From the IMG/VR virus record IMGVR_UViG_3300028422_001686: DNA of 64,000 bases; one strand, written 5' to 3'. This document shows, piece after piece, positions 11,741 through 59,741 of the stretch. Below the pieces are notes generated by a model. The model made no database searches. It was given only the letters and a program-made list of their open reading frames with translations, and had not been told where the DNA came from. Numbering within the stretch: the first letter of the stretch is position 1; the number at the start of each line of letters is the position of its first letter. The stretch comes from a virus. Lineage: Duplodnaviria > Heunggongvirae > Uroviricota > Caudoviricetes. The translations under genes and the position numbers were made by a program.

Positions 11741-12547
11741 ATGAGAATTTTATGCTTAACTGATACTCATAGAGGGTACTCAAGCAGAACGTCTAGAGTT
11801 CACGATAAGTTCTTTAAACGTATTAGAGATAATGAGCAGTTTGATTTAATTGTTCATTCTGGTGACATTGGAAGCAACTCCCAAAAAAGCACTTATGCTG
11901 GCTTAAAGTCTTTAAGAAGGGCATTTCCTGATCATGTTATTCTAACAGTAAAAGGTAATCATGATTGGTGGGATTGGTATAGTTTTAAGTCTAAAAAGAA
12001 GAACCCTTATAAAACACGATATACTTTTGATTTAATGGAGAGCGAATTCCGGCGTGTTTGTAAAGAAAACAAGATTCACTATTTACAAGATGGGGAATAT
12101 GTCTCAGAAGATGTCGTGATTTTTGGTTTTGATAGTTGGTATGGGCTAGATCCCTATGAATTTACCAATGATTTAAGCTATATGCCAATTGGTATAGAAG
12201 GAAGTACACATCATTTTATGAGACTAAGGTCTGATAGGGCTTTAGCCAAAATTTTTGATTTGACTGAAAAGTATTCTCAATCAAAAGTTTTAGTTACACA
12301 TTTTCCCTCCTATTGTGATGAGGAGAAATACAAGAGACTTCAAGGGCCACAGTATTACCTTGAGCATATACTTGAAGTTTTTGATTATTATATTGTGGGA
12401 CACACTCACAGGTCAGTAGACAGAGTTGAGGGTAAGTGCCGCATTATAAATGCAGGAACTAATAACCCTGAGTTTTGGGACGGCGGCTATGATCGGCCTG
12501 CGTATAAAATTATTGATACAATGGAGGTGGTTAATGGCCATTCTTGA
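11741..12547 (+). CDS. calcineurin-like metallophosphoesterase
   Basis: The four metallophosphatase motifs are present in order: LTDTHRG, HSGDIG, GNHDWW and GHTHR. Confidence 0.7.
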   Translation: MRILCLTDTHRGYSSRTSRVHDKFFKRIRDNEQFDLIVHSGDIGSNSQKSTYAGLKSLRRAFPDHVILTVKGNHDWWDWYSFKSKKKNPYKTRYTFDLMESEFRRVCKENKIHYLQDGEYVSEDVVIFGFDSWYGLDPYEFTNDLSYMPIGIEGSTHHFMRLRSDRALAKIFDLTEKYSQSKVLVTHFPSYCDEEKYKRLQGPQYYLEHILEVFDYYIVGHTHRSVDRVEGKCRIINAGTNNPEFWDGGYDRPAYKIIDTMEVVNGHS

Positions 12548-13691: not shown

Positions 13692-14212
13692 GGGGGTGAA
13701 TTAGTTTCGACACGGTTACGAGGTTTGTATTTGCATGTCCCGGATGGTTCTTGGCCGGGTTATCAATGAACTAAATCATAATTGGCAACGATTATATCGA
13801 ACTTCAAGCTGCTGCTTAATTAGCATTCAGTTGAATGAGGGCCTTACACCAATAACAAAAAGTAAGGGACATACGGACAGGTCTAATAATCGTCTAAAAA
13901 GTTCCCACGGAACGTTGACTCTGTGGCGTTGTTTTCCTTGTGTACAGTAAACAAACAAGGTGGTGGAGGGAACCATGTGTTCCCCTATTGAGTATCTTGT
14001 GACCAGGATATTCAGGTTGTGTGATGAGAGCAACTTTAAAGATTTTGAAACATGAGGCATCTAGTCATCAATTATGTGAAGGAATGGCCCAACCTTGTTA
14101 AAAAATGGTTACTATTTGCTTGGATAGTATTGGCATCAAAAACAAGCTAAACATGTAGACGATATTTATTGAGTAGTTGTGGACGCGGGGGCAGGGCCCG
14201 CCACCTCCACCA
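13692..14212 (+). ncRNA. ssrA: tmRNA (ssrA-like), unusually long at ~520 nt
   Basis: The 5' end GGGGGTGAATTAGTTTCGACACGG matches the tmRNA consensus GGGGNUGAUUCUGGAUUCGACGGG. The 3' end has a T-arm-like stem GCGGG/CCCGC and an acceptor 3' strand CACCTCC followed by A and CCA, which pairs with the 5' GGGGGTG. A tag-like frame at 13784-13818 ends GCT GCT GCT TAA and reads (G)NDYIELQAAA*. The region is GC-richer than its flanks and has no credible ORF. Confidence 0.6.
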
Positions 14213-16004: not shown

Positions 16005-16128
16005 AATAGGTGGGCCGAAGGTTATTGGTTATCATTTTTTTTGGAAATAAAAGCCGAGGTGGTTCGATTCCACCATTAGCCCATTTGGTAAAGGAGGGCG
16101 TTCCCAATACCATATTTGCTCACCTATT
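16005..16128 (+). ncRNA. Y-RNA-like (YrlA-like) small RNA immediately upstream of the Ro60/rsr gene
   Basis: The terminal helix AATAGGTG...TTATTGG (5') pairs with CCAATAC...CACCTATT (3'), with an internal bulge, and is followed by TTTTTT. Inside is a canonical T-arm, GGTGG-TTCGATT-CCACC. There is no ORF. Position and strand match the rsr-yrlA arrangement. Confidence 0.5.
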
Positions 16129-16156: not shown

Positions 16157-16233
16157 CGGCAGGGTCGATAGACTAAGGGTTATCTAGGTTGTGATTTTCC
16201 CCTTAATCATTTCATTTACCCTGCCTTTCTTTT
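16157..16233 (+). ncRNA. second small structured RNA or long-stem terminator upstream of rsr
   Basis: CGGCAGGG and CCCTGCC form a stem enclosing ~55 nt, followed by TTTCTTTTTTTT. The enclosed GGTCGATAGA-N-TAAGGGTTATC motif recurs at 26420. Confidence 0.35.
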
Positions 16234-16271
16234 TTTTAATAATAATATTTTAATACATTATGGAGGACGAC

Positions 16272-17948
16272 ATGTCTTATCGCTATTCTTCTTTAATTAA
16301 AGAAACCCCACAAACTAGTGCAATTCCTGGTAAACAAATGGTTAAGAACAATGCAGGTGGCTTTGTTTTTAAAATTGATAAATGGCAACGTCTTATGCGC
16401 TTCTTAATTCTTGGCGCAGAGAGTGGTACTTATTATGTAAATCAAAAAGCTTTTGCATTAGAAAATATTGATAGAGTCCTTGAGTGTATTAATGAAGATT
16501 CAAGAAAAGTTCTTACTACATTGCTTGATGTCTCTCTCAATGGAAGGGCCTTAAAGCAAGATGCAACAATATTTTTATTGGCTCTTGTTTCAAGTCAAAA
16601 TAAGGGGACTAAAGATGTTGAGCTTAATGAGCTAATTAAGTCGGCTGTTTTAAAAGTTTGTAGAACGCCTACAATGCTTTTTATGTACCTTAAGTTTGTT
16701 AGAGACTTAAGAGGGATGGGTCCTTCTGTAAGAAAATCTATTGCAAAATACTATACTGAAACAGACTTTAGTCGACTTGACCTGAGTGTTATTAAGTACC
16801 GTAATCGTGAAGGCTATACTCATAGAGATGCCTTGCGTTTATCTCATCCAAAGGCTAAAGATGAAAAACGTCAGCAGCTTTTTGCGTATCTTGTAGGAAA
16901 AGCAAATGCTCCTGAAGGTACAATGTGTGAGCTTTTTGAAAAGCTAAAAACAATTGATCTAAATACTAAAAAGGGTGTTAGTGAATTAATTGGCCTAATC
17001 ACTAAACATAATATTCCTCGGGAGCTATTGCCAACTGCAGCATTGAATAATGCAGATGTATGGAGAGCAATGCTTCCAGGAATGCCTATTATGGCATTAG
17101 TCAGAAACTTAGGTAAAATGTCTAGCCTTAATATTTTTGATAGTAATCTAAGAGATGAAACTATCATGGTTGTGAATAAGCTAGGAAATAAAGAGGTTAT
17201 TGAAAAATCCAGAATTCATCCTATGCAGCTTTATATTGCATCTAAGGTATATTCAGCAGGTAGAGGGGTCAAAGGATCTTTATCTTGGAGACCTAATGCT
17301 AAAATTAGATCAGCCCTAGATACTGCAATGACATTGGCTTTTAAAAATATTAAACCAACAGGAAAGAGATTTCTTATTGGTGCTGATATTTCCGGTTCTA
17401 TGACTTGTTCGGTCTTAGGTACTGATTTTGTTTCAGCATATGAAGCTTCAGCTTGTTTAGTTACAACTCTTGTTAGAACTGAAGAAAATGTTGATGCAGT
17501 TGCTTTTGGTAGTCCATCTAAAGGTGGGTATAGATCTTGGAATGAACCAAGAAACTATGGCTTTTCTATAGGGAATAATGGCGTTTCTGTTATGCCTGTA
17601 AACAAGAAAGAATCGGTAGACTCACTTGTTGGTCGTATGCAAAGCAACTACCATATGGGTAGTGGAACTGATTGTTCTCTTCCTATTAGTTATGCCTTAA
17701 ATAAAAAGATACCTGTTGATGTATTTGTCATTACTACTGACAATGAAACATGGGCCGGCAAGGAGCATGTATGTCAGATTTTAGACAAATATAGAAAAAC
17801 AATGGGTATTAATGCAAAATTATTTGTGATGGCAACATCATCTTCAGATTTTACTATTGCTGATCCTAATGATCCTGGAATGCTTGATTGCGCAGGATTT
17901 GATGCTTCAGTATTCAGTCTATTGTCGGAGTTTGCCTTACAAGAATAA
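16272..17948 (+). CDS. rsr: Ro60/Rsr ortholog (TROVE domain plus C-terminal vWA with a MIDAS site)
   Basis: The N-terminal NAGGFVFKIDKWQRLMRFLILGAESGTYYV matches the TROVE signature. A vWA MIDAS motif, FLIGADISGSMT, lies in the C-terminal half. The ATG at 16272 follows the RBS GGAGGA. Confidence 0.75.
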   Translation: MSYRYSSLIKETPQTSAIPGKQMVKNNAGGFVFKIDKWQRLMRFLILGAESGTYYVNQKAFALENIDRVLECINEDSRKVLTTLLDVSLNGRALKQDATIFLLALVSSQNKGTKDVELNELIKSAVLKVCRTPTMLFMYLKFVRDLRGMGPSVRKSIAKYYTETDFSRLDLSVIKYRNREGYTHRDALRLSHPKAKDEKRQQLFAYLVGKANAPEGTMCELFEKLKTIDLNTKKGVSELIGLITKHNIPRELLPTAALNNADVWRAMLPGMPIMALVRNLGKMSSLNIFDSNLRDETIMVVNKLGNKEVIEKSRIHPMQLYIASKVYSAGRGVKGSLSWRPNAKIRSALDTAMTLAFKNIKPTGKRFLIGADISGSMTCSVLGTDFVSAYEASACLVTTLVRTEENVDAVAFGSPSKGGYRSWNEPRNYGFSIGNNGVSVMPVNKKESVDSLVGRMQSNYHMGSGTDCSLPISYALNKKIPVDVFVITTDNETWAGKEHVCQILDKYRKTMGINAKLFVMATSSSDFTIADPNDPGMLDCAGFDASVFSLLSEFALQE

Positions 17949-17961
17949 ATGTGAGGTAGAC

Positions 17962-18441
17962 ATGAAAACTATTGATAGACTTGTTAAAGAAGTTCTTGAT
18001 GAACACAAGGAAGGTGAAAAGTTTTTTGAGAACTTGGATGAAAAAGTCAGAGATAAAAAGTGGTGCCAGGCACTATGGACCTCATATGTAAAATCTGGCT
18101 TACGTGACAATATGGATTTTATTGTTATGTCAGGTAGATTTGGTCAGCTATTCTATAACTTTCTAGTTTCTATTGGTGTGACTCGACCCATCTTTTTAGT
18201 TAGAGGTGGGTTAAGGCGCAATCCAGAACTGGATGACTTGAATAGCTTTGAGCTAAGTGGTACACGCTTTGTTTTCTTTGATGACAGCCTTTATGCTGGA
18301 AGAACAAGGGATGCAATTCATAGTCATTTAGTCGATCTGGGGAGTAAAGGAATCCAACATACATTTGTTATTTATGATGGATCTGAAGTAAAAGAAGAGT
18401 CTGTACACTCACTGTATAGGTACTGGGATAACGAGGAATAA
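17962..18441 (+). CDS. phosphoribosyltransferase-like protein (PRPP-binding-like motif)
   Basis: RFVFFDDSLYAGRTRD resembles the PRTase motif (hydrophobic)4-DD-x-x-T-G-x-T. RBS GAGGTAGA. Confidence 0.35.
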   Translation: MKTIDRLVKEVLDEHKEGEKFFENLDEKVRDKKWCQALWTSYVKSGLRDNMDFIVMSGRFGQLFYNFLVSIGVTRPIFLVRGGLRRNPELDDLNSFELSGTRFVFFDDSLYAGRTRDAIHSHLVDLGSKGIQHTFVIYDGSEVKEESVHSLYRYWDNEE

Positions 18442-18443
18442 TT

Positions 18444-19526
18444 ATGAGAAAATTAGCAAGTATTCAAGAAGTTTTGGCTGTTGAAGATATTGAGGGAGCT
18501 GACAGAATTCAACTTGCTTCTGTTTTAGGATGGAAGTGTATTGTTAAAAAAGGTGAATTTAAAGCTGGAGACTTAGCTGTATATATTGAAATTGATTCTA
18601 TTTTGCCTGAATGGCCAGAATTTGAATTTTTACGTGAAAAGAAATTCAGAATCAAAACATGGAAGTTAAATAAGTTTGGTGTTATTTCTCAAGGTATTTT
18701 ATTTCCTGTAGACATCTTGCCTGCTTATGACTCTAGAAATCCCCCAAAAGAAGATGACGATGTAACTAAGATTCTGGGTGTTACTAAATACGAACAACCT
18801 GATACTGTTATCATTGAACCAAAAAAGCACAAAGGTATTATTAAGTATCTTATGAAGTATAGTCTTTTTAGAAAGATGTATCTGTATTTACATGGAAATC
18901 GTAAAGCAGATTTTCCTTCTTTTATTGAAAAGACAGATGAAACAAGAGTTCAGAGCCTTAAAAAGATTTATAAAGTCTATAAAGAGAAAGGCTACTGGGT
19001 TCCTTCTGAAAAATTAGAAGGGTGTTCTGCTACATATTTTGCCAAGAAAGAAGGTAGAAAGATCATTTTTGGTGTTTGCAGTAGAAATCAATGGCTTAAA
19101 AAGAACGACGGATCCCATTATTGGAGCATCGCTATTAATTATGATCTTGAAAAGAAGCTTAAAGACTCTTTAAAAGAAATGAAAAATGTAGACTTGCTTG
19201 TTGTTCAAGGTGAAATTACTGGCCCAGGAATACAGGGAAATATTTATGGATTAGCTACTCATCAATTTAATATTTTTAATATTGTTATTGATAATAAAAG
19301 AGTTGCACTAAATAAGACATGCGCCTGGAAAGGCATTGATACAGTTCCTATTTTTCCAGCAAGAATTATTCCTGATGAAATTGATCAAATTATTGAATGG
19401 TCTAATGGAAAAAGTGAAATTAATCCTAATGTTATGAGAGAAGGTCTTGTGTTTAGGAACTTTGAAGACCCAAGTCTTTCATTTAAAGTCGTGTCTCCAG
19501 AGTATCTATTGAAAAATGGGAAATAA
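18444..19526 (+). CDS. ATP-dependent RNA ligase (Rnl-type nucleotidyltransferase with an N-terminal OB-like domain)
   Basis: Candidate nucleotidyltransferase motifs occur in the expected order: I (EKLEGCS, Kx[DE]G), Ia (VCSRNQ), III (LLVVQGEITG), IV (EGLVFRNFED) and V (SFKVVSPEYLLK). The N-terminal ~60-aa segment MRKLASIQEV...ADRIQL resembles the Rnl5/DraRnl N-domain. Confidence 0.5.
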   Translation: MRKLASIQEVLAVEDIEGADRIQLASVLGWKCIVKKGEFKAGDLAVYIEIDSILPEWPEFEFLREKKFRIKTWKLNKFGVISQGILFPVDILPAYDSRNPPKEDDDVTKILGVTKYEQPDTVIIEPKKHKGIIKYLMKYSLFRKMYLYLHGNRKADFPSFIEKTDETRVQSLKKIYKVYKEKGYWVPSEKLEGCSATYFAKKEGRKIIFGVCSRNQWLKKNDGSHYWSIAINYDLEKKLKDSLKEMKNVDLLVVQGEITGPGIQGNIYGLATHQFNIFNIVIDNKRVALNKTCAWKGIDTVPIFPARIIPDEIDQIIEWSNGKSEINPNVMREGLVFRNFEDPSLSFKVVSPEYLLKNGK

Positions 19527-19528
19527 CA

Positions 19529-20095
19529 ATGAGTAATTTAGGATTAAAATATAAAACAATTATCGGAATTGGGGATGAAATTCTTCGTCGTATAAATGAA
19601 GTTTATATCCCCGCCGTAGTTATTTTAACTGAGAACTCTTATTTTGCCATGGGAAATGATTACGAGTTTCAATTAAGTTCTACTAATTGTAGTATCTGTC
19701 ATTATGTTTTGTGGGATAAGGGTAATTCTCAGACAAAATGTTATTCTTGCCCTTTAAGAATGCGTGACCATGAAAGAAAGTTTGCTGGAATTAAAAAGAT
19801 AGACTACCATTGTATTCCTTATTCAAGGAAAACAAATATGTTAGATCAAGCTGGGAAGTATCATGATCTGGCAGAGAACATAGTAGAAAAAGCATGGAAT
19901 TTACAAAATAGTGAATTCCAATCTAAATGGCCATCTAAACCGAGGTCTATTTTTTCTAAAAACTTTAGAGATATAGAAACTAAAGATACCATTAAGCGAA
20001 TAAAGCGAAGGGTTTCTTGGCTAATTAAAAGAATTAATAAAGAATTAAAATCCATTGATGCCGAGACTATTCATGTAACTTGGGGAGGGTATTAG
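19529..20095 (+). CDS. hypothetical Cys-cluster protein
   Basis: Motif CSICHYVLWDKGNSQTKCYSCPL. Confidence 0.45.
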   Translation: MSNLGLKYKTIIGIGDEILRRINEVYIPAVVILTENSYFAMGNDYEFQLSSTNCSICHYVLWDKGNSQTKCYSCPLRMRDHERKFAGIKKIDYHCIPYSRKTNMLDQAGKYHDLAENIVEKAWNLQNSEFQSKWPSKPRSIFSKNFRDIETKDTIKRIKRRVSWLIKRINKELKSIDAETIHVTWGGY

Positions 20096-20322
20096 AAATG
20101 AAATATTTATTTTTTATTTTATTTGCAGTTTTCTTTGGTTGTTCTAATGATTATTATGTTGAGATACATCGTAAAGATGGTAAATGTCTTCAAAAAGAAG
20201 GTGAGGTAGTTTACTATTCATGTAAAGAGGAAGTCTGGGGTATGGATAATACAGTTGCATTATGTGATACAAAAGAAGAATGTAACAAGATATGTGAAGG
20301 GTATAGGGAGAAACAAAAATAA
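20080..20322 (+). CDS. small putative lipoprotein
   Basis: Signal peptide plus FFGCSNDY lipobox, and four further Cys. Confidence 0.4.
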   Translation: MGRVLEMKYLFFILFAVFFGCSNDYYVEIHRKDGKCLQKEGEVVYYSCKEEVWGMDNTVALCDTKEECNKICEGYREKQK

Positions 20323-20331
20323 AAAAAATAA

Positions 20332-20408
20332 GCGCTCTTAGCTCAGTCGGTTAGAGCTCCCGGCTCATAACCGGGTGGTCATGTGTTCAAGTCACATAGG
20401 GCGCACCA
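20332..20408 (+). tRNA. tRNA-Met/fMet (CAT)
   Basis: Acceptor GCGCTCT pairs with AGGGCGC. D-arm GCTC-AGTCGGTTA-GAGC. Anticodon stem CCCGG with loop CTCATAA. T-arm ATGTG-TTCAAGT-CACAT. The 3' end is ACCA. Confidence 0.8.
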
Positions 20409-20593: not shown

Positions 20594-20839
20594 ATGAATA
20601 AAGCAAAAGTTATTATTTATGATGCAGATAATAAAGAGGTTATGTCTTTAATATGTACTGATGTACGGTATACAATTGTTAATGACTTAAAAACACTTCC
20701 TGTTTTAAAGAATAAAATTGGAATGAAAAGCCCCCTGTATTCAACAGGAGCATTTATAGACTTTAATGGATATATTCCTAGAGATAAAGAGTCTATAAAC
20801 AAAGATGTTGATCAAATTTTAAAGGAAAGTTATGAGTGA
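20594..20839 (+). CDS. hypothetical protein
   Basis: RBS AGAGAGG upstream of an 81-aa ORF. Confidence 0.4.
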   Translation: MNKAKVIIYDADNKEVMSLICTDVRYTIVNDLKTLPVLKNKIGMKSPLYSTGAFIDFNGYIPRDKESINKDVDQILKESYE

Positions 20840-21434
20840 TGACAATAAGGTTTTAGTTATTGTTGATATGCAATATGATTTTATTAACAAAGATGGAGCT
20901 CTTTATGTTGGAGAAAAAGCTGAAAGCATTATTGAGAACATAGTAGCTTTTAAAAAACTTTTTAAAAAAGTTGTATTTACTCGAGACATTCATCCTTGCT
21001 TGAATGGAACAGATACTCAAGATGAGATAAATGAGTTTACTCAGTTTGGTAAGCATTGTCATGATGTGAAGACAAGTGCAATTGATTCTCGATTGATAGA
21101 TCAAAATGATTTCACTGGGAAAGAAGAGGTTATTTTTAAAAGCTCATTTGCAACATCTATGGCTGAAAGATTTTTTACTAGAGTAGATCCTCGAAAAGCC
21201 GAGTTTCATGTGACAGGTGTCTGTACCCATATTTGTGTTCATGATGTGATTGCTGAAATTGTCAATTACTCTAAAAACATATATAACAGATTACCTAAAA
21301 TCTATTTATATAAAAATATGATTGGTGACTTTGATGCTGAAATGGAAGCATTTGCAATTAAACGTCTCCAAAAATTATATGGAGTTCAAATGGTTGAATT
21401 TGCTCATGTAGGAACTATGGGGATAGAAAAATGA
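20832..21434 (+). CDS. pncA: nicotinamidase / isochorismatase-family cysteine hydrolase
   Basis: VLVIVDMQYDF is the N-terminal nicotinamidase motif. A catalytic Cys lies in VTGVCTHICVHD. Confidence 0.7.
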   Translation: MSDDNKVLVIVDMQYDFINKDGALYVGEKAESIIENIVAFKKLFKKVVFTRDIHPCLNGTDTQDEINEFTQFGKHCHDVKTSAIDSRLIDQNDFTGKEEVIFKSSFATSMAERFFTRVDPRKAEFHVTGVCTHICVHDVIAEIVNYSKNIYNRLPKIYLYKNMIGDFDAEMEAFAIKRLQKLYGVQMVEFAHVGTMGIEK

Positions 21435-22213
21435 AAGAGATAAGATACAAAAAATTTTCTAATGGACAGGTGTTTGCCCTTAAAACAAGTGACGGATATC
21501 CAATAGAAGTAACTGAAACTTTTCTTCCTTTTTATACAAAAGACGCAATAGGTAGGAAACAGAATTTTTTAGATTCAGAAGCTTTAGGTGATCGATCTGA
21601 AAGATGGATGATTGGTGTTTCTTGTATGTCTGGCTGCCCTGTTAGATGTAAGTTCTGCGCTACTGGAAATCTTCCTAAATATAGAAATCTAACTGGTCAG
21701 GAAATTTTTGATCAAGTTGAATTTGCTATTGAAAAAGGTGGAGCGAATCCGCTTGAAGCAAAAGAATTTAAGATTAATTATACAAGAATGGGTGAGCCTT
21801 TTCTTAATATCGAAGCGATTAAAGAGGCTATTACGTTAATTGATGCCAAGTATCCTAATACTCATCATTATGTTTCTACTATTGGAATTAAGGGGTCTGA
21901 CTTTAGTTGGATCAAAGACAATGTTACGCTTCAATTATCTCTTCACTCTTTAGACGAAGATAGAAGAAACGATTTAATTCCTTTTAAAAACAAGATGTCT
22001 ATCAAAGAACTTGGCGAGGTTGTTACTCAGAGTAATCTTAAAACAACCTTAAATCTTACTTTAGTTGATGAAAAAGATTTTAATATTGATTTATTGAAAG
22101 AGTATTTTGACCCCAATAAGTTTTTTGTGAAGCTCAGTCCTATTAATGTGAATGATGTTTCAGAGAAAAACAATATGGGTGAAGGTATTATAAAAGGTGT
22201 TAATCTTCTATAG
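21431..22213 (+). CDS. radical SAM enzyme
   Basis: The motif CMSGCPVRCKFCATG contains CxxxCxxC. Confidence 0.55.
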   Translation: MKEIRYKKFSNGQVFALKTSDGYPIEVTETFLPFYTKDAIGRKQNFLDSEALGDRSERWMIGVSCMSGCPVRCKFCATGNLPKYRNLTGQEIFDQVEFAIEKGGANPLEAKEFKINYTRMGEPFLNIEAIKEAITLIDAKYPNTHHYVSTIGIKGSDFSWIKDNVTLQLSLHSLDEDRRNDLIPFKNKMSIKELGEVVTQSNLKTTLNLTLVDEKDFNIDLLKEYFDPNKFFVKLSPINVNDVSEKNNMGEGIIKGVNLL

Positions 22214-22223
22214 GAGGTATTCT

Positions 22224-22346
22224 ATGATTGAGATTAAAAACCAACTAGAATCAGCAGGATATGACTATGCCGTAGCTGTTGCTACTCAATCTGAGATTGA
22301 AAACGGCGCAGCTTGTGGACAATTGTCTATCATTACTGAGGATTAG
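22224..22346 (+). CDS. 40-aa small peptide (MIEIKNQLESAGYDYAVAVATQSEIENGAACGQLSIITED)
   Basis: RBS AGGAGGT lies 7 nt upstream of the ATG. The gene sits directly downstream of the radical-SAM gene and directly upstream of a strong terminator. It is too short to appear in the ORF track. Confidence 0.35.
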   Translation: MIEIKNQLESAGYDYAVAVATQSEIENGAACGQLSIITED

Positions 22347-22352
22347 TTAAAG

Positions 22353-22376
22353 GAGCTTCGGCTCCTTTTTTATTTA
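22353..22376 (+). terminator. intrinsic terminator
   Basis: GGAGCTTCGGCTCC hairpin followed by TTTTTTATTT. Confidence 0.65.
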
Positions 22377-22387
22377 AGGAAAAAGAA

Positions 22388-22741
22388 ATGAATAAAGTTA
22401 AATCGTTTTTAAAAGATGTCTATATGGTGGTAGTATTTTCTCTTCTTTCATTTGTACTAGGAGTCTTAATAGTTCGTCCTGATGCTGAGAGGTATAAGAG
22501 GATATATGATCTTTATAATAGTTGCTATGTGGAAAAGCCTACTGTTACAAAGTATAAGGCCGAAGATTTAGTTCAATATGAAACAGGTTATCTTCCCGTA
22601 AAAAATGCATTTGGAAAAATCGACAAAATTAATGTTGAATTTGACAATCAAAGAAAAGAGATCAGTTATTTTATTAATGGACTTCTTGTTCCTGAAAAAT
22701 GGATTCTAAATAAGGTTGTAATAGTTAAAGAAAAGGAATAG
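22388..22741 (+). CDS. hypothetical membrane-anchored protein
   Basis: N-terminal transmembrane helix (VVVFSLLSFVLGVLIV). Confidence 0.45.
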   Translation: MNKVKSFLKDVYMVVVFSLLSFVLGVLIVRPDAERYKRIYDLYNSCYVEKPTVTKYKAEDLVQYETGYLPVKNAFGKIDKINVEFDNQRKEISYFINGLLVPEKWILNKVVIVKEKE

Positions 22742-22744
22742 TTC

Positions 22745-23650
22745 ATGAGTGAATTATTAAAAGTAGATGAAGATCTTAAGTCGTTTGCAAACTTTCTTTA
22801 CTTTTTAGGTGGAGATCTTTCTTCCTATAATTTTTCAGAGTATACCCTTCTAAAGAAAGAAGCTAATAGTCTTTTAACGGATATTGACAATGACAATATT
22901 GAACATGGTTGTGATATCTTATGTTCACTTAAAGCTTATAAAAAAGCTTTAAGTAAAGTGCTTAGAGAGTATAAAAAAAGAGGTTGGGACACTCTGCTTT
23001 CAGATAAATATTTTTTTAAAAGTAAAAAATGGTTTGAGGATTTCGTTAAAAGAGCCTATCGTTTTGGTGACATGGATGATGATGAAAGAGATGATATAAA
23101 CCAGTTGGTTGAAGAAATCTATAGAAACAGTAAAAGAGAGAAAATGAATGCTGATCTAAAAGGTGAGATTAAAGAGGCTAGCAAGCATATGGATGCTGTA
23201 GGTAAAGCACAAACAACTCTTTCTGATCTAAACTCTTTAACTATGATTGATGATTACAGCTTTCAGTCTGGTACTGTTGAGTATGATATGAGTCATGTAA
23301 AATTTGAATGTAATTTAGATGGGGTTGTACCCCTAAAAGATAATGAGGAGAAAAAGATGAGTGCAAATTTAATTAATAAAATGAACGGCTTAAAGAAAGG
23401 TGAAGAGCATGTTGTTGATTTAGTTCAAGAAACTGAAGAGATCAAAACCGTCTCAATTAGTCTTGAGAAAATCCTAAGTAACTACTCTAAAGTTAAGCAA
23501 ATGAAGCTTGGAGAGAAAGCACTTCTCAGAAAACTTTCTGTTAATGATGACAAAGTTACCCTAGAAATCTCTGTAGGAGATGTAGAAAGAGAAGAAAATG
23601 CTGTTGTATTAGCAAATTTGAACTCTATTCTAACTCAAGAAAAGAAATAA
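22745..23650 (+). CDS. hypothetical protein
   Basis: 301-aa acidic coiled-coil ORF. Confidence 0.5.
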   Translation: MSELLKVDEDLKSFANFLYFLGGDLSSYNFSEYTLLKKEANSLLTDIDNDNIEHGCDILCSLKAYKKALSKVLREYKKRGWDTLLSDKYFFKSKKWFEDFVKRAYRFGDMDDDERDDINQLVEEIYRNSKREKMNADLKGEIKEASKHMDAVGKAQTTLSDLNSLTMIDDYSFQSGTVEYDMSHVKFECNLDGVVPLKDNEEKKMSANLINKMNGLKKGEEHVVDLVQETEEIKTVSISLEKILSNYSKVKQMKLGEKALLRKLSVNDDKVTLEISVGDVEREENAVVLANLNSILTQEKK

Positions 23651-23805
23651 TATGGGTTTCTTAAAAGACAATTACCATAAAATTGCTATAGGTTTTGCTT
23701 TAATGGTAGCCCTTTATTCTGGGGCCTTAATTTATTCTGCGTATAAATTCGGCTCTTTTATGGAAGGGCTGAATTCTTATTACATGAAGCATTCAGAGGT
23801 TGTTA

Positions 23806-24948
23806 ATGAAAAATTATATGATTGAACCAATTATAACAAGCTTATTAGATAATGATCTTTATAAGTTTACTATGCAGTACGCAAGTAGACATATAGGGCA
23901 TGCTTATATGCCACGTAGAGGCATTGTAAAGTATAAGCTGTACAATAGAAGCAAAAACAGTCTTTTAGGAATAAAAGATTTGCTGGAAGCTCAGATTGAT
24001 ATGTTATGTCAATTGAGATTTACAAATGAAGAGATTAACTATCTTCGTACATTAAATCTTTTTGATGAGGACTATCTGTGCAAGCTCAAAAATTTTACTT
24101 TTTTTCGTGAAAACATTATAGTTGATACACGTGAAGGTGACCTTGCTCTTGAGATAAAAGGTGCATGGTATAGTACAATTCTTTTAGAAGTACCATTACT
24201 GGCAATTATTAGTGAACTTGTTTCTCATAAAAGTTACGCTTCAAATCCAACCCCACAAATGGGTGCATTTGATGGAAGTTATTCTATTTATGATTTTGGA
24301 ACAAGAAGACGACATAGTTTTGCTCATCAAAAAGAAGTTTTAACTGGACTTAAAGGAATGCCAGCATTTAAGGGCACTTCTAACGTCTATTTTGCACGAT
24401 TGTTAAACCTTCCAGTGTTTGGATCTATGGCACATGAATGGATGCAATATCATCAAATTTTTGGTATAGAGCAATTCCAAGAATTTGCGCTTAACGGTTG
24501 GTCTGACACTTTTAAAGGAAAATGTGGGATAGCTTTAACTGACACTATTAACATGGATTCTTTTTTAAAAGAGTTTGATGGAAAACTAGCTCGTATTTAT
24601 GATGGCTGTCGCCATGATTCAGGCGATCCTTTTATTTGGGGAGAAAAACTACTGTCTCACTATATGGAATTAGGTATTGATCCAAGATTTAAAACGTTAG
24701 TTTTTTCTGATGGTTTAGACTTTAATACCATAAAGGATATTCAAGAAGCTTTTGCTCATAGAGTAAGAGTCTCATTTGGAATTGGAACTAAGCTAATGAA
24801 TAGATCCATTGACCCTCCATCGATTGTAATTAAAATGGTTTCTGCAGAAGGACAGCCTGTGGCGAAGATTTCTGATGAACCATTTAAGACAGTTTGTGAA
24901 GACTTGAATTACTTAAAAGAAGTAAAAGAAAGACTAAATGTTATTTAA
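23806..24948 (+). CDS. pncB: nicotinate phosphoribosyltransferase
   Basis: The N-terminus MIEPIITSLLDNDLYKFTMQ matches the NAPRTase signature (LLDTDLYKLTM). Length is ~380 aa. The ATG at 23806 follows GAGG. Confidence 0.7.
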   Translation: MKNYMIEPIITSLLDNDLYKFTMQYASRHIGHAYMPRRGIVKYKLYNRSKNSLLGIKDLLEAQIDMLCQLRFTNEEINYLRTLNLFDEDYLCKLKNFTFFRENIIVDTREGDLALEIKGAWYSTILLEVPLLAIISELVSHKSYASNPTPQMGAFDGSYSIYDFGTRRRHSFAHQKEVLTGLKGMPAFKGTSNVYFARLLNLPVFGSMAHEWMQYHQIFGIEQFQEFALNGWSDTFKGKCGIALTDTINMDSFLKEFDGKLARIYDGCRHDSGDPFIWGEKLLSHYMELGIDPRFKTLVFSDGLDFNTIKDIQEAFAHRVRVSFGIGTKLMNRSIDPPSIVIKMVSAEGQPVAKISDEPFKTVCEDLNYLKEVKERLNVI

Positions 24949-26412: not shown

Positions 26413-26556
26413 TTATAGTAGGTCGATAGAGATAGGTTATCGCATTTTAAGCCGTAGGTTATAGGTTCAAATCCTATCCTTGCAGCCATTTTATTGCAAG
26501 GTAGCTCAATTGGCAGAGCAACGTAAACGTCTATTTCAACTTTTTTACTTACTATT
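26413..26556 (+). ncRNA. circularly permuted tRNA-like RNA, YrlA-like (copy A)
   Basis: The order along the strand is a T-arm ATAGG-TTCAAAT-CCTAT, then the acceptor 3' strand CCTTGCA, then G-CCA, then the linker TTTTAT. After that come the complementary acceptor 5' strand TGCAAGG and a canonical D-arm GCTC-AATTGGCA-GAGC. The outer helix ATAGTAG...CTTACTAT is followed by TTTTTT. Confidence 0.45.
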
Positions 26557-28473: not shown

Positions 28474-29046
28474 ATGTATGACATTAATTTTAAAAGAAAA
28501 ATTCTTTCACAATTAGATAGTGAATTTAATTCTATCCCTCAAGAAGAGTATGAGTCTTATAGTTTGTTCTATAATAGCTGGGTAGTTAAAGTAAGAGTTA
28601 GTAATAAAGGATGGGATTTTTTACATAGAGCTTATTATTTATGTAAAAATGTTTATGAAATTATAGATATTCCATTTATTGATTTTGCTAATCACTTTAT
28701 ATATCGAAGAGGCTGGAGAAATAGCCTTATCCCCTATTCATGGACACACAAAAGAACATGGTGTCGTTTTGGTCGTGAGCGACATAAGTATCAAAAAAAA
28801 TCACACCATAAAAAGAAAGTTCTTACTGAGCATGAAAAAGCAAAGAAAGAATGGAGAGTAAAAACAAAGGATCCTAGAGATCAAGGTGAAAGATACTCTA
28901 ACAACAGTATGTATACATATGCTCGTCGTCGGGCTAATAGAGATGTAAGAAGAAAGGTTAAGCAATTGATTTATCATTGTGGTGACTGGGACGCTTATGT
29001 CCATCCTGACAAGAATGAGTTTCTTGACCCATGGGATTATAGTTAA
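28474..29046 (+). CDS. hypothetical basic protein
   Basis: RBS AGGAGAAA. The C-terminal half is Lys/Arg-rich. Confidence 0.5.
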   Translation: MYDINFKRKILSQLDSEFNSIPQEEYESYSLFYNSWVVKVRVSNKGWDFLHRAYYLCKNVYEIIDIPFIDFANHFIYRRGWRNSLIPYSWTHKRTWCRFGRERHKYQKKSHHKKKVLTEHEKAKKEWRVKTKDPRDQGERYSNNSMYTYARRRANRDVRRKVKQLIYHCGDWDAYVHPDKNEFLDPWDYS

Positions 29047-29471
29047 AAGTTTTAATAGGTCGACAAATAATGGTTATCAATGATGTTGTAGTAGTGTTTT
29101 TTTAATTTTTCGCTAGTTGTTTTCCTATTTCTCTTGAGGCATAATTAATTGCTTTTGAAGAGGGAAGTAGATTGGTTTTAAAAAATTAACCGTAGAGGGT
29201 ACTTCTCGTGGTGTCAGCCACGTAAATAATATGACAGAGTGAACTGTAAACTCCACCTCCACTAGAAGGTGTGCACTAGTGGAAAACAAGGGAGTAACGC
29301 GTAAGATCTTATGATACGAGAAGCGGCCGATTTGTGGATTTTTATTCCATTATTTAACTATTTACCTATTTTTTAGGCTAAAACACAATGCGGATTAACC
29401 TTAAGGTCGTGTGACGGATCGACTATAAAAATAACGCTACCAGTGTGTGGATACTGAGGCATGTGTTTTCA

Positions 29472-29501
29472 GGGCTCACTATTTTAGTGGGCCCTTTTTA
29501 T
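29472..29501 (+). terminator. intrinsic terminator closing the 29050-29500 non-coding region
   Basis: GGGCTCACT-ATTTT-AGTGGGCCC followed by TTTTTATTTTT. Confidence 0.6.
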
Positions 29502-29520
29502 TTTTAAGGATGTATTTTTT

Positions 29521-29778
29521 ATGAGTATAACATTGATAAAAAAAGAGAAGGTTATTAAGGAAGTAAAATACCTTAATGTATGTGCTAAATGTTCAGATTG
29601 TTTTTCTGGTGATCTGTTAGATTCACAAGGCAATATCGTCCATGACTATGATGGATATGTTCCATCTGGGCTAGGTATTGGTCGTGGAGACTATGTAGAA
29701 TTTAAGGTTGACTTAGAAACTGGTCAGATCTTAAATTGGAAAAAACCAGAAGACATTATTATTGAAGATAATGATTAG
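29521..29778 (+). CDS. hypothetical protein
   Basis: 85-aa ORF. Confidence 0.45.
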   Translation: MSITLIKKEKVIKEVKYLNVCAKCSDCFSGDLLDSQGNIVHDYDGYVPSGLGIGRGDYVEFKVDLETGQILNWKKPEDIIIEDND

Positions 29779-29780
29779 TA

Positions 29781-29925
29781 AATAGTGTATGCCGAAAGAA
29801 TTTGATTACCATATCAAGGAGTAGGTCGTAGGTTCGAGTCCTGCTCTCCTCCCCATTTTATGGAGGAGATAGCTCAGTGGGTAGAGCAACTAAAGCTCAA
29901 ATTCACCCTTTTGCTTACACTATTT
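29781..29925 (+). ncRNA. circularly permuted tRNA-like RNA, YrlA-like (copy B)
   Basis: The outer helix AATAGTGTATGC pairs with GCTTACACTATT and is followed by TTTTATTTT. Inside are a T-arm GTAGG-TTCGAGT-CCTGC, the acceptor 3' strand TCTCCTC, C-CCA and the linker TTTTATG. These are followed by the complementary acceptor 5' strand GAGGAGA and the D-arm GCTC-AGTGGGTA-GAGC. Confidence 0.45.
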
Positions 29926-30037
29926 TTATTTTAAATATTCTTTAGCTAGGTCGAATGACATTCCGTTATCATTTGTTTTGGGTATAAATAGACCGGAGTC
30001 AATTTTATTACTTAGCTTTATATTAAAAGGAGGGAAG

Positions 30038-30664
30038 ATGAAAGAACGAATCTTTCTTGCACTTGCTATCTTTTTAACTATTTTTATTATCGGTAACGCT
30101 GAAGCCACTTCTCCTAAAGATGTAGATAAATGGTGTAAGTATTATCAATATGATAATTGTGAGTTAGTTCATGCAATTATAAAAAGTGAATCAGGATATA
30201 ATCCAACATCTTTTGTTGATGAAAAATCAGGAAGTTATGGGTTAATGATGGTTCAGTGTGATACCGCTAAGGATCCTCGTCTTGAAGCCCCACTTAAATA
30301 TGGCTGTGATCAACTGTTTAATCCTCAGCTAAATGTAAGATATGGAATTATGTATCTTAAGATGATTCAGAAACTACTTATAATAGCTGATTCTGAAGAA
30401 GAGTTTATTAAAGACTTAATTGCTGTATACAATGCAGGGTTTGATAAGACTAAAATAAGCAAAGAAATAACTGTTGCTGGAGACATTATTGTCGCTACTG
30501 GATATAAACCACGTAAATGTAAACACTATAATAAGTTTAGATATGATGGTTTTCCTCCACAAGAATGCTATCCCGGTGAATACATTAATGAAGAACATGT
30601 TTGGAAAGTTTATAGACGATACAAGTTTTTAAAGGAGAAGTCTAATGAAATGGTTAAAAAGTGA
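30038..30664 (+). CDS. lytic transglycosylase (SLT domain), secreted
   Basis: Signal peptide. The catalytic-region signature ESGYNPTS...GSYGLMMVQ matches the SLT pattern E-S-x-x-N-P ... G-x-x-G-L-M-Q. RBS AAGGAGGG. Confidence 0.65.
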   Translation: MKERIFLALAIFLTIFIIGNAEATSPKDVDKWCKYYQYDNCELVHAIIKSESGYNPTSFVDEKSGSYGLMMVQCDTAKDPRLEAPLKYGCDQLFNPQLNVRYGIMYLKMIQKLLIIADSEEEFIKDLIAVYNAGFDKTKISKEITVAGDIIVATGYKPRKCKHYNKFRYDGFPPQECYPGEYINEEHVWKVYRRYKFLKEKSNEMVKK

Positions 30665-31121
30665 AGTAAACCAAAAACGTTTTAATTGGCTTGTTGTGGT
30701 CAATATTTTTTTGATCTATTTATTAATTGCACTATCTAATAGCGCCAAGGCTCAAGATCAAATTGGATCAGTTAATACTAAAGGACTTATCTTTAAAGAT
30801 AAGATTAATGTCGTTGCATTTGATGATCCCGGTATTTCAGGAGTTACATGTTATACAACTCAACATAAAAAAGCTTTAAGTCTTGTTGATAGCTCTAGTG
30901 TTTCTTTGGCTTGTAGGCAGACCGGTGCAATTAACTTAAGTAATACTAATAATGCTTCAAATGTTTTTTCTACAATGAAAGGACTCTTTTTTAAAGAGAC
31001 AGTTATTGATAGATTTATTGACAATAAAAGAGGTGTTATTGTTTATTTAGCTTATACAAAAGCTCTTGGTGGTAAAAATGCTAGTCATAGTATTTCTACT
31101 GTAGTTGTAAGGCCCTGGTAG
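30645..31121 (+). CDS. putative secreted protein
   Basis: Signal peptide ending in SNSAKA. Confidence 0.45.
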   Translation: MKWLKSEVNQKRFNWLVVVNIFLIYLLIALSNSAKAQDQIGSVNTKGLIFKDKINVVAFDDPGISGVTCYTTQHKKALSLVDSSSVSLACRQTGAINLSNTNNASNVFSTMKGLFFKETVIDRFIDNKRGVIVYLAYTKALGGKNASHSISTVVVRPW

Positions 31122-46670: not shown

Positions 46671-46922
46671 ATGGATATTTTAATGAACCATAATATAGCA
46701 TACCCTTGCTATGTTTTAATTAAAGAAGAGGAAAACACTCTTATAGCAAATAGCGATGGTGTTGGTAAAGTTGCCTTACATCATCCAGATTCCTTTTTAA
46801 AGAAGGGGATGAAGGTTTACTTTAATAATTTAAAAAAAAGTTGTGTTGTCATAAATGGTGAATCATTTTTTGTGTTAAAGCAAGAAGACATCTATTTATA
46901 CGAAGAGGCTGGACATGAGTAA
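46671..46922 (+). CDS. putative co-chaperonin (GroES-like)
   Basis: 83 aa, directly upstream of and overlapping the GroEL-like gene. The segment VLIKEEENTLIANSDGVGKVALHHPD fits a GroES-type beta layout. The assignment rests on position and size. Confidence 0.3.
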   Translation: MDILMNHNIAYPCYVLIKEEENTLIANSDGVGKVALHHPDSFLKKGMKVYFNNLKKSCVVINGESFFVLKQEDIYLYEEAGHE

Positions 46923-54009: not shown

Positions 54010-54011
54010 TC

Positions 54012-55064: not shown

Positions 55065-55076
55065 AAAGAGGTAAAA

Positions 55077-55943: not shown

Positions 55944-55956
55944 GGTGGAGTTTCGT

Positions 55957-59725: not shown

Positions 59726-59741
59726 AATGAAAGGAGAACAA

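What the first reader, a model, noticed from the sequence alone, without database searches (positions are those of the whole stretch)
29781..29925. Second permuted tRNA-like (YrlA-like) gene, copy B, with the same CCA-TTTTAT(G) junction
Copy B is independent of copy A, 3.3 kb away, and has the same architecture. It reads T-arm GTAGG-TTCGAGT-CCTGC, then acceptor 3' TCTCCTC, C-CCA and the linker TTTTATG. Next come acceptor 5' GAGGAGA and the D-arm GCTC-AGTGGGTA-GAGC. An outer 12-bp helix AATAGTGTATGC/GCTTACACTATT is followed by a U-tract. The arm sequences differ from copy A, but the acceptor strands remain mutually complementary. That is compensatory covariation, arguing for a functional RNA family. 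All three loci (16005, 26413, 29781) start with (A)ATAG and end CTAT plus Us.
Basis: seen in the sequence. Interest (0 to 1): 0.65.

Follow-up and report, generated by a model that had tools for sequence, protein, structure and literature searches.

The report
Phage YrlA-type tRNA-mimic Y RNA
This is a small non-coding RNA gene of a known kind, a YrlA-type Y RNA that partners the phage's own Ro60 protein. Its middle mimics a tRNA turned inside-out, and here it has a built-in CCA end, which suggests it is cut open like a real tRNA precursor.

Summary

- **Family match:** Rfam's YrlA model aligns end to end, at 36 bits. That is below the curated 69 bits.
- **Family features present:** the 5' GNCGAANG motif, the YUAY element and the 15:48 Levitt pair.
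- **Partner protein:** the phage encodes a Ro60/Rsr protein (16260-17948) on the same strand.
- **Other Y RNAs:** four more Y-RNA-like genes lie in the window (16005, 16158, 26415, 29944).
- **Covariation:** it is strong across 8-11 related cores. The acceptor helix is 96-100% paired, and all 7 of its pairs show changes on both sides.

The "permuted tRNA" view of YrlA is already published, and so is RNase P opening plus CCA addition in M. smegmatis YrlA. What may be new is a recurrent subclass with a genome-encoded N73-CCA and a tRNA-type U/A-rich spacer. I found eight examples. At least five of the eight come from phage or viral contigs, and one lies beside a TROVE (Ro60-family) gene in a Rhizobiales genome.

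Best reading: copy B is an Rsr-bound tRNA mimic that is probably opened by RNase P. It is a new member of a known kind, of moderate interest.

The parts
29781..29925 (+). Copy B: the complete YrlA-type Y RNA gene (outer helix, Ro-binding module, tRNA-like core), followed by the T-run 29923-29932
   Evidence: Sequence. YrlA model 36.4 bits over model positions 1-114. R1 98.6 bits. Fold z -4.7.
29791..29798 (+). GCCGAAAG, matching the GNCGAAN0-1G motif. This is the presumed Rsr contact. UUAC (YUAY) follows at 29806-29809.
   Evidence: Motif defined in PMC4201824. A regex for the 5' module gives 5 hits in the window, all on the + strand, against 0.33 in shuffles.
29828..29844 (+). T-arm mimic: GTAGG / TTCGAGT / CCTGC
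   Evidence: T stem 97.5-98% paired across relatives, with 3-4 of 5 pairs changed on both sides.
29845..29869 (+). Acceptor-stem mimic. It consists of TCTCCTC (66-72), C73, CCA (29853-55), spacer UUUUAU, G(-1) at 29862 able to pair with C73, then GAGGAGA (1-7).
   Evidence: Across 8 CCA-type relatives the acceptor helix is paired in 56 of 56 cells, and all 7 pairs change on both sides.
29872..29887 (+). D-arm mimic: GCTC / AGTGGGTA / GAGC. G15 (29877) forms the Levitt pair with C48 (29827).
   Evidence: The 15:48 pair is C:G in 7 and U:A in 4 of 11 cores, with none broken. Copy A has U:A and copy B has C:G.
26415..26555 (+). Copy A: a paralogous YrlA-type gene directly after tRNA-Trp. Its acceptor region reads CCTTGCA-G-CCA-TTTTAT-TGCAAGG.
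   Evidence: 35.3 bits; 67.4 bits; minimum-energy fold equals the tRNA-like fold.
16005..16128 (+). Y-RNA-like gene with the 5' module GCCGAAG...GGTTATC and a T-arm but no D-arm. It lies just upstream of rsr.
   Evidence: (Y_RNA RF00019 21.9 bits, E 0.03).
16158..16225 (+). Short YrlB-like Y RNA hairpin (GGTCGATAG...GGTTATC) followed by a T-run. It lies between the previous gene and rsr.
   Evidence: (z -3.3 to -3.4).
29944..30017 (+). Possible second YrlB-like Y RNA immediately after copy B (AGCTAGGTCGAATG...GTTATC...ACTTAGCT)
   Evidence: Regex hit. Fold has an 8-bp closing helix, z -2.3. This is weaker evidence.
16260..17948 (+). Ro60/Rsr orthologue, the presumed protein partner
   Evidence: Pfam TROVE 1.3e-38 and vWA_Ro60 1.1e-47. 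33-38% identical to proteins annotated "Ro-like RNA binding protein" in actinophages.
18444..19526 (+). RNA ligase two genes downstream of rsr (context; involvement is only inferred)
   Evidence: Pfam PHA02142 OB-fold plus RNA_ligase. PHROG 968 RNA ligase 2e-69.

Best explanation
Copy B is a gene for a YrlA-class Y RNA. This is a roughly 145-nt non-coding RNA made on the + strand and ended at the T-run.

Shown here:
- Its two ends pair into a long, interrupted stem. That stem carries the 5' GCCGAAAG motif.
- Its centre folds as a tRNA without an anticodon arm. It has a T-arm, a 7-bp acceptor helix, a D-arm and the 15:48 tertiary pair.

Inferred from the family:
- The stem binds the phage's own Ro60/Rsr ring.
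- The tRNA-like head is the effector-binding module. It tethers Rsr to a host factor such as PNPase. This was shown for Deinococcus and Salmonella, and in vitro for Thermus phage phiLo.

Inferred, at about even odds:
- The acceptor helix is exactly 7 bp. It is followed by an encoded C73-CCA and a U/A-rich spacer like the trailers of this phage's own tRNAs.
- The closing "loop" would therefore be processed like a tRNA-tRNA junction. RNase P cuts before G(-1)/G+1, and 3' trimming stops at CCA.
- The product is a nicked, two-piece Y RNA with a free CCA end, as seen for M. smegmatis YrlA.
For: Family identity:
- The YrlA covariance model aligns end to end to B and to A.
- The GNCGAAN0-1G and YUAY features are present.
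- rsr is on the same strand.
- Five Y-RNA 5' modules occur in the window, against 0.33 expected.

Structure:
- 92-93% of pair cells are paired, against 64-68% in shuffles and 29-50% when partners are slid.
- All 7 acceptor pairs and 3-4 T-stem pairs show changes on both sides.
- The Levitt pair covaries perfectly in 11 cores.

Relatives next to rsr have the same design:
- L005, Rsr 38% identical.
- L276, Rsr 55% identical.
- Microbacterium phage Zooman.
- A Rhizobiales genome, L233.

Processing:
- All eight CCA-type cores have exactly a 7-bp acceptor helix.
- The base at -1 is U in six. It is G in two, and both of those have C73.
- All 8 window tRNAs and the tmRNA carry an encoded CCA followed by a U/A-rich trailer.
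- CCA-UUUUAU is a common genuine inter-tRNA spacer.
- M. smegmatis YrlA has a 7-bp acceptor stem. It is cut by RNase P in vivo and in vitro, and it gains CCA (PMC4201824).
- A phage Ro60 binds phage Y-like RNAs and forms a complex with host PNPase in vitro (PMC12135203).
Against: - The Rfam score is about half the curated threshold.
- Copy B lies 11.8 kb from rsr, whereas published YrlAs are nearly all within 4 kb.
- B's computed minimum-energy fold is not the tRNA-like one.
- No orthologue of A or B was found in any collection, so conservation rests on paralogues and distant family members.
- Three of the eight CCA-type examples were found by a pattern that required CCATTTTAT. Their linker identity is therefore not independent evidence.
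- The alignments were fitted to my own model.
- There are no expression, binding or cleavage data.
- Most phage YrlAs (11 of 19 cores here) have closed loops without CCA.
Confidence: 0.8

Rival explanations
1. It is the same YrlA-type Y RNA, but it is never opened. The acceptor helix stays closed by an 11-nt loop. The NCCA-plus-spacer is only a relic of origin from a tandem duplication of one tRNA gene.
For: - Salmonella and Deinococcus YrlA/Yrn1 are not cleaved (PMC4201824).
- Most phage YrlAs here have closed loops.
- Tandem identical tRNA-Ala genes in phage Zooman mimic the arrangement and score 34-38 bits, showing how such an element could arise.
Against: - NCCA sits at the exact tRNA position in 5 of 16 cores that were found without requiring it. 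Chance for CCA there is about 1/64 per core.
- It always comes with a 7-bp helix and with U(-1) or a G(-1):C73 pair.
- The stems have diverged heavily while CCA is kept.
Confidence: 0.3
2. It is a decaying remnant of two adjacent tRNA genes (a pseudogene junction) with no function of its own.
For: It lies in or near the tRNA cluster. The spacer is like real inter-tRNA spacers.
Against: - There is no 5' half of an upstream tRNA and no 3' half of a downstream one. ARAGORN and the Rfam tRNA model find nothing there.
- The flanks instead form the Y-RNA stem with the Rsr motif.
- Two paralogues keep all helices through compensatory changes.
- Real junctions have broken acceptor pairing.
Confidence: 0.03
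3. It is a true circularly permuted tRNA gene. As in the red alga Cyanidioschyzon, the ends would be joined (perhaps by the phage RNA ligase) and the acceptor opened, giving a working tRNA.
For: - The order of parts is that of a permuted tRNA.
- An RNA ligase is encoded nearby.
- Wang et al. 2018 raise this possibility for some YrlAs.
Against: - The anticodon-stem equivalent is only 3 bp in A and B.
- It continues into a ~37 + 36-nt Y-RNA stem with no anticodon loop.
- I saw no bulge-helix-bulge site by eye in the folds and did not run a dedicated search. No splicing endonuclease turned up among the scanned ORFs.
Confidence: 0.02
4. It is a two-piece (permuted) tmRNA gene, or a phage attachment site built from a tRNA 3' half.
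For: - Permuted tmRNA genes also place T-arm, acceptor 3' strand and CCA before the acceptor 5' strand.
- attP sites often copy tRNA 3' ends.
Against: - ARAGORN finds no tmRNA here, and no tmRNA_permuted match appears in the E<=10 scan of 29700-30000.
- There is no room for a tag reading frame or pseudoknots.
- A standard tmRNA already sits at 13692-14212.
- No integrase was seen among the scanned ORFs.
- An attP would not need the complementary 5' strand and a D-arm.
Confidence: 0.01

Closest known systems
YrlA of Salmonella Typhimurium and relatives (Rfam RF02553; Chen et al. 2014; structure in Wang et al. 2018)
   Same: - Rsr-binding terminal stem with GNCGAAN0-1G.
- YUAY/V region.
- T-arm, acceptor-like helix, D-arm, and the tRNA tertiary pairs.
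- Encoded with rsr on the same strand.
   Different: - The Salmonella acceptor helix is 6 bp, closed by a short loop, has no CCA and is not cut by RNase P.
- Copy B has 7 bp plus C73-CCA plus a spacer.
- Copy B lies 11.8 kb from rsr.
- Copy B scores only 36 of the 69 bits required.
Mycobacterium smegmatis YrlA (Chen et al. 2014)
   Same: The acceptor helix is 7 bp. The expected outcome is the same: opening by RNase P into two base-paired pieces, the 5' piece ending in CCA.
   Different: In M. smegmatis only the first C is encoded and CA is added after trimming. Here the whole CCA and a tRNA-type U/A-rich spacer are encoded. Processing of copy B is untested.
Yrl1/Yrl2 of Thermus phage phiLo with phage Ro60 (NAR 2025, PMC12135203), and the mycobacteriophage YrlAs of Chen et al. 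2014
   Same: These are phage-encoded Y RNAs with a CGAA motif, partnering a phage Ro60. The proposed role is hijacking host PNPase.
   Different: - The phiLo RNAs lie directly upstream of the Ro60 gene, and that paper does not use the terms tRNA-like, CCA, YrlA or RNase P.
- The YrlA-like core R1 finds beside the Ro-like gene of mycobacteriophage Bxz1 (31.1 bits; not individually confirmed as the published one) has a longer closed acceptor stem-loop.
Circularly permuted tRNA genes (Cyanidioschyzon merolae; Soma et al. 2007, as cited in Wang et al. 2018)
   Same: The gene order is 3' half, CCA-side junction, 5' half. The acceptor stem is initially closed.
   Different: Those mature into real tRNAs through a circular intermediate and have an anticodon arm. 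Copy B has none and carries a Y-RNA stem instead.
Tandem tRNA genes with short spacers
   Same: The local string is T-arm, acceptor 3' strand, NCCA, UUUUAU, acceptor 5' strand, D-arm. This is a known false-positive class for YrlA models.
   Different: In true tandems the two acceptor strands belong to different tRNAs and do not pair, and complete tRNAs flank the junction.

Membership tests
YrlA-type Y RNA (Chen et al. 2014; Rfam RF02553) | GNCGAAN0-1G motif near the 5' end, within the terminal stem | tested here: met
   GCCGAAAG at 29791-29798. Copy A has the near-match GTCGATAG.
YrlA-type Y RNA (Chen et al. 2014; Rfam RF02553) | Near-invariant T and D stem-loops with tRNA-like loop nucleotides, in the order T then D | tested here: met
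   GTAGG-TTCGAGT-CCTGC and GCTC-AGTGGGTA-GAGC. D stem invariant and T stem 98% paired in 11 cores.
YrlA-type Y RNA (Chen et al. 2014; Rfam RF02553) | Acceptor-like stem-loop between T and D, variable in sequence but always paired | tested here: met
   Seven Watson-Crick pairs in B. 96% paired in 11 cores and 100% in 8 cores, with changes on both sides at all 7 pairs.
YrlA-type Y RNA (Chen et al. 2014; Rfam RF02553) | YUAY at the start of the V region | tested here: met
   UUAC at 29806-29809. UUAU is at the equivalent place in copy A and in the two loci near rsr.
YrlA-type Y RNA (Chen et al. 2014; Rfam RF02553) | Levitt 15:48 pair kept as G:C or A:U | tested here: met
   B has G15:C48 and A has A15:U48. 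Eleven of 11 cores are paired: 7 C:G and 4 U:A.
YrlA-type Y RNA (Chen et al. 2014; Rfam RF02553) | Encoded within about 4 kb of the Ro60/Rsr gene, on the same strand | tested here: not met
   The strand is the same, but B starts 11.8 kb and A 8.5 kb downstream of rsr (16260-17948). Two other Y-like RNAs lie within 260 nt upstream of rsr.
YrlA-type Y RNA (Chen et al. 2014; Rfam RF02553) | Score at or above Rfam's gathering threshold (69 bits) | tested here: not met
   36.4 bits (B) and 35.3 bits (A). Neither is reported in the gathering-threshold scan. Part of the loss comes from the 11-12-nt insertion in the acceptor loop and from the divergent outer stem.
YrlA-type Y RNA (Chen et al. 2014; Rfam RF02553) | Bound by Rsr; T and D loops modified by TruB and DusA | not testable with these tools
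   Needs immunoprecipitation and modification mapping.
RNase P-opened YrlA (M. smegmatis type) | Seven-base-pair acceptor helix stacked on a 5-bp T stem | tested here: met
   All eight CCA-type cores have exactly 7 bp.
RNase P-opened YrlA (M. smegmatis type) | Cleavage at +1 and a CCA 3' end on the 5' piece | not testable with these tools
   Only sequence features speak for it: encoded NCCA, U(-1) or G(-1):C73, and a U/A-rich spacer like the phage's tRNA trailers.
tRNA gene | Cloverleaf with an anticodon arm, detected by tRNA finders | tested here: not met
   ARAGORN finds 8 tRNAs elsewhere and none here. There is no Rfam tRNA match in 29700-30000 at E<=10.
Two-piece (permuted) tmRNA | Tag reading frame, pseudoknots, and a match to tmRNA models | tested here: not met
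   ARAGORN finds no tmRNA and RF04321 gives no match at this locus. The window's tmRNA is at 13692-14212.

The most novel reading that the evidence does not exclude
Copies A and B belong to a distinct "openable" subclass of Y RNAs. I found eight examples. At least five of the eight come from phage or viral contigs, and one lies beside a TROVE (Ro60-family) gene in a Rhizobiales genome.

In this reading, the encoded N73-CCA and tRNA-type spacer make the RNA a constitutive RNase P substrate. The mature form is a two-piece, CCA-ended tRNA mimic held on Rsr.

That form could be aminoacylated. Copy B and L005 carry the G(-1):C73 pair, which from general knowledge is the main histidine identity mark. 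The opened RNA could then engage EF-Tu, synthetases or tRNA-end-targeting host toxins, either as a decoy or as a tether during infection.
Probability: 0.12. Interest if true: 0.75.

Novelty: new member of a known kind. Interest (0 to 1): 0.4.

Why it matters
- **Wider host range for the system.** This places a complete Ro60/Y-RNA system in an uncharacterised large phage. It has one Rsr and up to five Y RNAs, next to an RNA ligase, a tRNA cluster and a tmRNA. The phage has no close relative in the phage, IMG/VR or JGI collections.
- **The M. smegmatis form may not be an oddity.** A genome-encoded CCA in the acceptor "loop" recurs in several phage lineages and in at least one bacterium. That suggests the opened, CCA-ended form first seen in M. 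smegmatis is a selected state. The effector function of the tRNA-like head is a long-standing open question, and this makes it testable with simple assays.
- **Annotation gap.** None of the six annotated phage records I inspected lists any Y RNA, including the one in Microbacterium phage Zooman.

Tried and rejected
- **Megablast of 29000-31000 and tblastn of a 937-aa ORF against GenBank phages.** No match. The phage could not be named.
- **Search for orthologues of A and B.** An A/B-specific pattern in JGI metagenomes gave 6 hits, all tandem tRNAs. The T-loop-anchored CCATTTTAT pattern gave 41 hits in IMG/VR, of which only L031 and L081 are true. Only L233 is convincing there. The other 6-7/7 "paired" cases are real tRNA pairs counted through G.U pairs.
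- **MAFFT alignment of four cores.** It misplaced the single indel and broke the pairing register. I built the model from two equal-length sequences instead and let Infernal align the rest.
- **Tandem identical tRNA-Ala genes in Zooman.** They passed the model threshold and were removed by hand.
- **Pfam and PHROG scans of about 50 ORFs.** No CCA-adding enzyme, aminoacyl-tRNA synthetase, RNase P protein, splicing endonuclease or integrase turned up.
- **Literature.** The supplementary tables of Chen et al. 2014 and the 2020 Annual Review are not held. I therefore could not check whether an encoded CCA is visible in published YrlA alignments.
- **Rejected readings.** tRNA pseudogene junction, true permuted tRNA, two-piece tmRNA and attP. 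See the rival explanations.

Full report
**What is in the sequence.**
- The ends: a 12-nt 5' strand (AATAGTGTATGC) pairs 11 of 12 with GCTTACACTATT at the 3' end. A T-run follows.
- The centre, in order: a T-arm (GTAGG/TTCGAGT/CCTGC), the acceptor 3' strand TCTCCTC, C, CCA, and the spacer TTTTATG.
- Then come the acceptor 5' strand GAGGAGA (seven Watson-Crick pairs), TA, and a D-arm (GCTC/AGTGGGTA/GAGC).
- Copy A (26415-26555) has the same plan with different stems.

No ORF of 40 aa or more overlaps copy B. It fills the gap between an 85-aa ORF ending at 29778 and an SLT transglycosylase gene starting at 30038.

**Is it more than chance?**
- Fold energies are lower than shuffles: z -4.7 for B and -2.7 for A.
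- For A, the unconstrained minimum-energy fold is the tRNA-like fold. For B it is 5.8 kcal/mol above an alternative. That is a common situation for tRNAs, whose tertiary contacts the energy model ignores.
- The most telling control is the tandem-tRNA junction, which has the same local string.
  - In the window's own tRNA cluster such junctions score 29 bits or less with my core model, and their acceptor pairs are broken. A scores 67.4 bits.
  - Of 118 viral stretches matching CCATTTTAT-N7/8-TAGCTCA, only two have complementary acceptor strands.

**What it is.**
- Rfam's YrlA model (RF02553) aligns over all 114 positions to B (36.4 bits, E 1.2e-6 for the 301 nt searched) and to A (35.3 bits).
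- Both scores are below the curated 69 bits, so neither appears in the gathering-threshold scan.
- The features Chen et al. 2014 use to define YrlA are present (PMC4201824):
  - the 5' GNCGAAN0-1G motif (GCCGAAAG, 29791-98);
  - YUAY (UUAC, 29806-09);
  - the T, acceptor-like and D stem-loops in that order;
  - a 15:48 Levitt pair that switches between G:C (B) and A:U (A).
- The window encodes a Ro60/Rsr orthologue at 16260-17948, with TROVE and vWA_Ro60 domains, on the same strand.
- A regex for the Y-RNA 5' module finds five sites, all on the + strand, against 0.33 in shuffles.
  - Two lie just upstream of rsr: 16005-16128 (T-arm only) and 16158-16225 (a YrlB-like hairpin).
  - The others are A, B, and a possible further YrlB-like hairpin at 29944-30017 directly after B (z -2.3).

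**Relatives and covariation.** I built a core model, R1, from B and one viral relative. I then searched loci anchored on Rsr homologues.
- YrlA-like cores appear beside rsr in many of these loci.
- In an alignment of 11 cores, 92% of pair cells are paired. Shuffles give 64%, and sliding the partners gives 29-44%.
- All 7 acceptor pairs and 4 of 5 T-stem pairs show changes on both sides. The D stem is invariant. The Levitt pair is C:G in 7 and U:A in 4, with no exception.
- These alignments are fitted to the model, so they lean towards it. The slide control and the tertiary pair, which the model does not encode, argue that the signal is real.

**The CCA junction.** Most phage YrlAs have a closed acceptor loop without CCA (11 of 19 cores). 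These include cores in mycobacteriophage Bxz1, Streptomyces phage Moab and Gordonia phage Sixama. Eight cores carry N73-CCA at the exact tRNA position after a helix of exactly 7 bp.

| Core | Source | How found | Acceptor junction |
|---|---|---|---|
| Copy A | window | — | G-CCA-UUUUAU |
| Copy B | window | — | C-CCA-UUUUAU-G |
| L005 | beside rsr | without requiring the linker | C-CCA-ACUGU-G |
| L276 | phage whose Rsr is 55% identical | without requiring the linker | A-CCA-UUAUUAAAUUUUAU |
| Zooman | cultured Microbacterium phage; unannotated gap 3 kb upstream of its Ro-like gene | without requiring the linker | G-CCA-AUCAU |
| L031 | viral contig | pattern containing CCATTTTAT | G-CCA-UUUUAU-U |
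| L081 | viral contig | pattern containing CCATTTTAT | U-CCA-UUUUAU |
| L233 | Rhizobiales genome, about 100 nt after a TROVE gene | pattern containing CCATTTTAT | U-CCA-UUUUAU |

- In this subset the acceptor helix is paired in 56 of 56 cells.
- The base before +1 is U in six. It is G in two, and both of those have C73, giving a G(-1):C73 pair.
- All eight tRNAs of the window and its tmRNA also have an encoded CCA followed by a U/A-rich trailer.
- CCA-UUUUAU is a frequent genuine inter-tRNA spacer.
- The junction therefore looks like a tRNA processing site rather than a hairpin loop.

**How it most likely works.**
- *Shown:* the anatomy, its conservation, and the presence of the partner gene.
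- *Inferred from the family:* the terminal stem binds Rsr. The tRNA-like head recruits another factor, with PNPase as the precedent (Chen 2013/2014 as summarised). For a phage Ro60 with phage Y-like RNAs and host PNPase in vitro, see PMC12135203.
- *Inferred at about even odds:* RNase P opens the acceptor "loop" and trimming stops at CCA. This gives two base-paired pieces, as demonstrated for M. smegmatis YrlA, the only characterised YrlA with a 7-bp helix.
- *Context:* rsr sits with an RNA ligase two genes downstream, a tRNA cluster and a tmRNA. This echoes the Salmonella rsr-yrlBA-rtcBA RNA-repair operon (PMC7790460). That link is only an analogy.

**Against, and limits.**
- The Rfam threshold and the "within 4 kb of rsr" criterion are not met.
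- No orthologue of A or B was found anywhere. The nearest Rsr is only 56% identical.
- Three CCA-type examples were ascertained by the linker itself.
- There are no expression data.

**Comparison with what is known, and novelty.**
- YrlAs are described in the literature as resembling circularly permuted tRNAs with closed acceptor loops and as lacking a free CCA end (Wang et al. 2018).
- The M. smegmatis exception shows that opening and CCA addition occur.
- Phage-encoded YrlAs have been known since 2014.
- Copy B is therefore a new member of a known kind.
- A full CCA plus a tRNA-type spacer encoded in the gene recurs in several phages and one bacterium. I did not find this stated in the main texts I could read. 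I could not inspect the supplementary alignments. It is a modest but testable extension.

**Verdict.** The mechanism is largely by analogy. Interest is moderate at 0.4.

Noticed in passing
window 29944-30017 (+): A possible fifth Y-RNA-like gene immediately after copy B. It has an 8-bp closing helix AGCTAGGT/ACTTAGCT, GTCGAATG and GTTATC motifs, and fold z -2.3. It would make B plus this hairpin a YrlA/YrlB-style pair like the one upstream of rsr.
   Followed up: partly
window 16005-16128 (+); L233 about 5850-5960: The Y-like RNA next to rsr has a T-arm but no D-arm. After the T-arm it carries AGCCCATTTGGTA. The second Y-like RNA downstream of the Rhizobiales TROVE gene has a similar TTCCCATTTTGGTA after its T-arm. 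This may be a second conserved Y-RNA type.
   Followed up: partly
window 13692-14212 (+): A phage-encoded one-piece tmRNA (94 bits). It is unusually long at 521 nt, with about 260 nt inserted relative to the model. ARAGORN missed it. By eye the tag reads GNDYIELQAAA.
   Followed up: partly
window 16260-20408 (+): The gene order here is rsr, a 194-aa unknown, an RNA ligase (PHA02142 OB-fold plus RNA_ligase), a 188-aa unknown, then tRNA-Met. A metallophosphoesterase lies at 11741-12547. The layout resembles a phage counterpart of the bacterial rsr-Y RNA-rtcB RNA-repair operon. A related phage contig fetched here (L276) also carries this ligase.
   Followed up: partly
L142 2992-3064 (Microbacterium phage Zooman OK040793, about 96712-96784): An unannotated YrlA-type RNA with encoded G-CCA in a cultured phage. 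It sits in a feature-free gap of the tRNA cluster, 3 kb upstream of the Ro-like gene. None of the six annotated phage records I inspected lists any Y RNA.
   Followed up: partly
L142 2401-2657: Three tandem tRNA-Ala genes give covariance-model hits of 34-38 bits, because identical neighbours have complementary acceptor strands. This is a concrete false-positive class. It is also a plausible evolutionary route to YrlA-like RNAs.
   Followed up: yes
L233 4138-6300 (Rhizobiales bacterium UCML01000006): A TROVE gene is followed by an array of at least three or four Y-like RNAs, each starting with GNCGAATG...ACTACA. The first is a CCA-UUUUAU YrlA in a 67% GC core, where the U-rich spacer stands out.
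   Followed up: partly
window 53275-57367 (+): A run of genes for a prokaryotic E2-like protein, a JAB-like protein and a ThiF/E1-like protein, followed by a reverse transcriptase (RVT_1). It may be a ubiquitin-like conjugation module plus an RT of unknown role.
   Followed up: no
window 20832-24948, 46915-48603 and 59718-60356 (+): Auxiliary genes typical of very large phages. These are an isochorismatase-like protein and NAPRTase (NAD salvage), two radical-SAM proteins (21431, 37733), a GroEL-like chaperonin, ClpP, a subtilase with a CUB domain (34160), and CreA and SLT proteins that hint at a Gram-negative host.
   Followed up: no
whole window: Almost every ORF of 100 aa or more is on the + strand. 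The window has no nucleotide match in GenBank phages. Its YrlA pattern is absent from IMG/VR and the JGI metagenomes. The closest Rsr proteins (50-56% identity) come from Logan assemblies of sequencing runs.
   Followed up: yes
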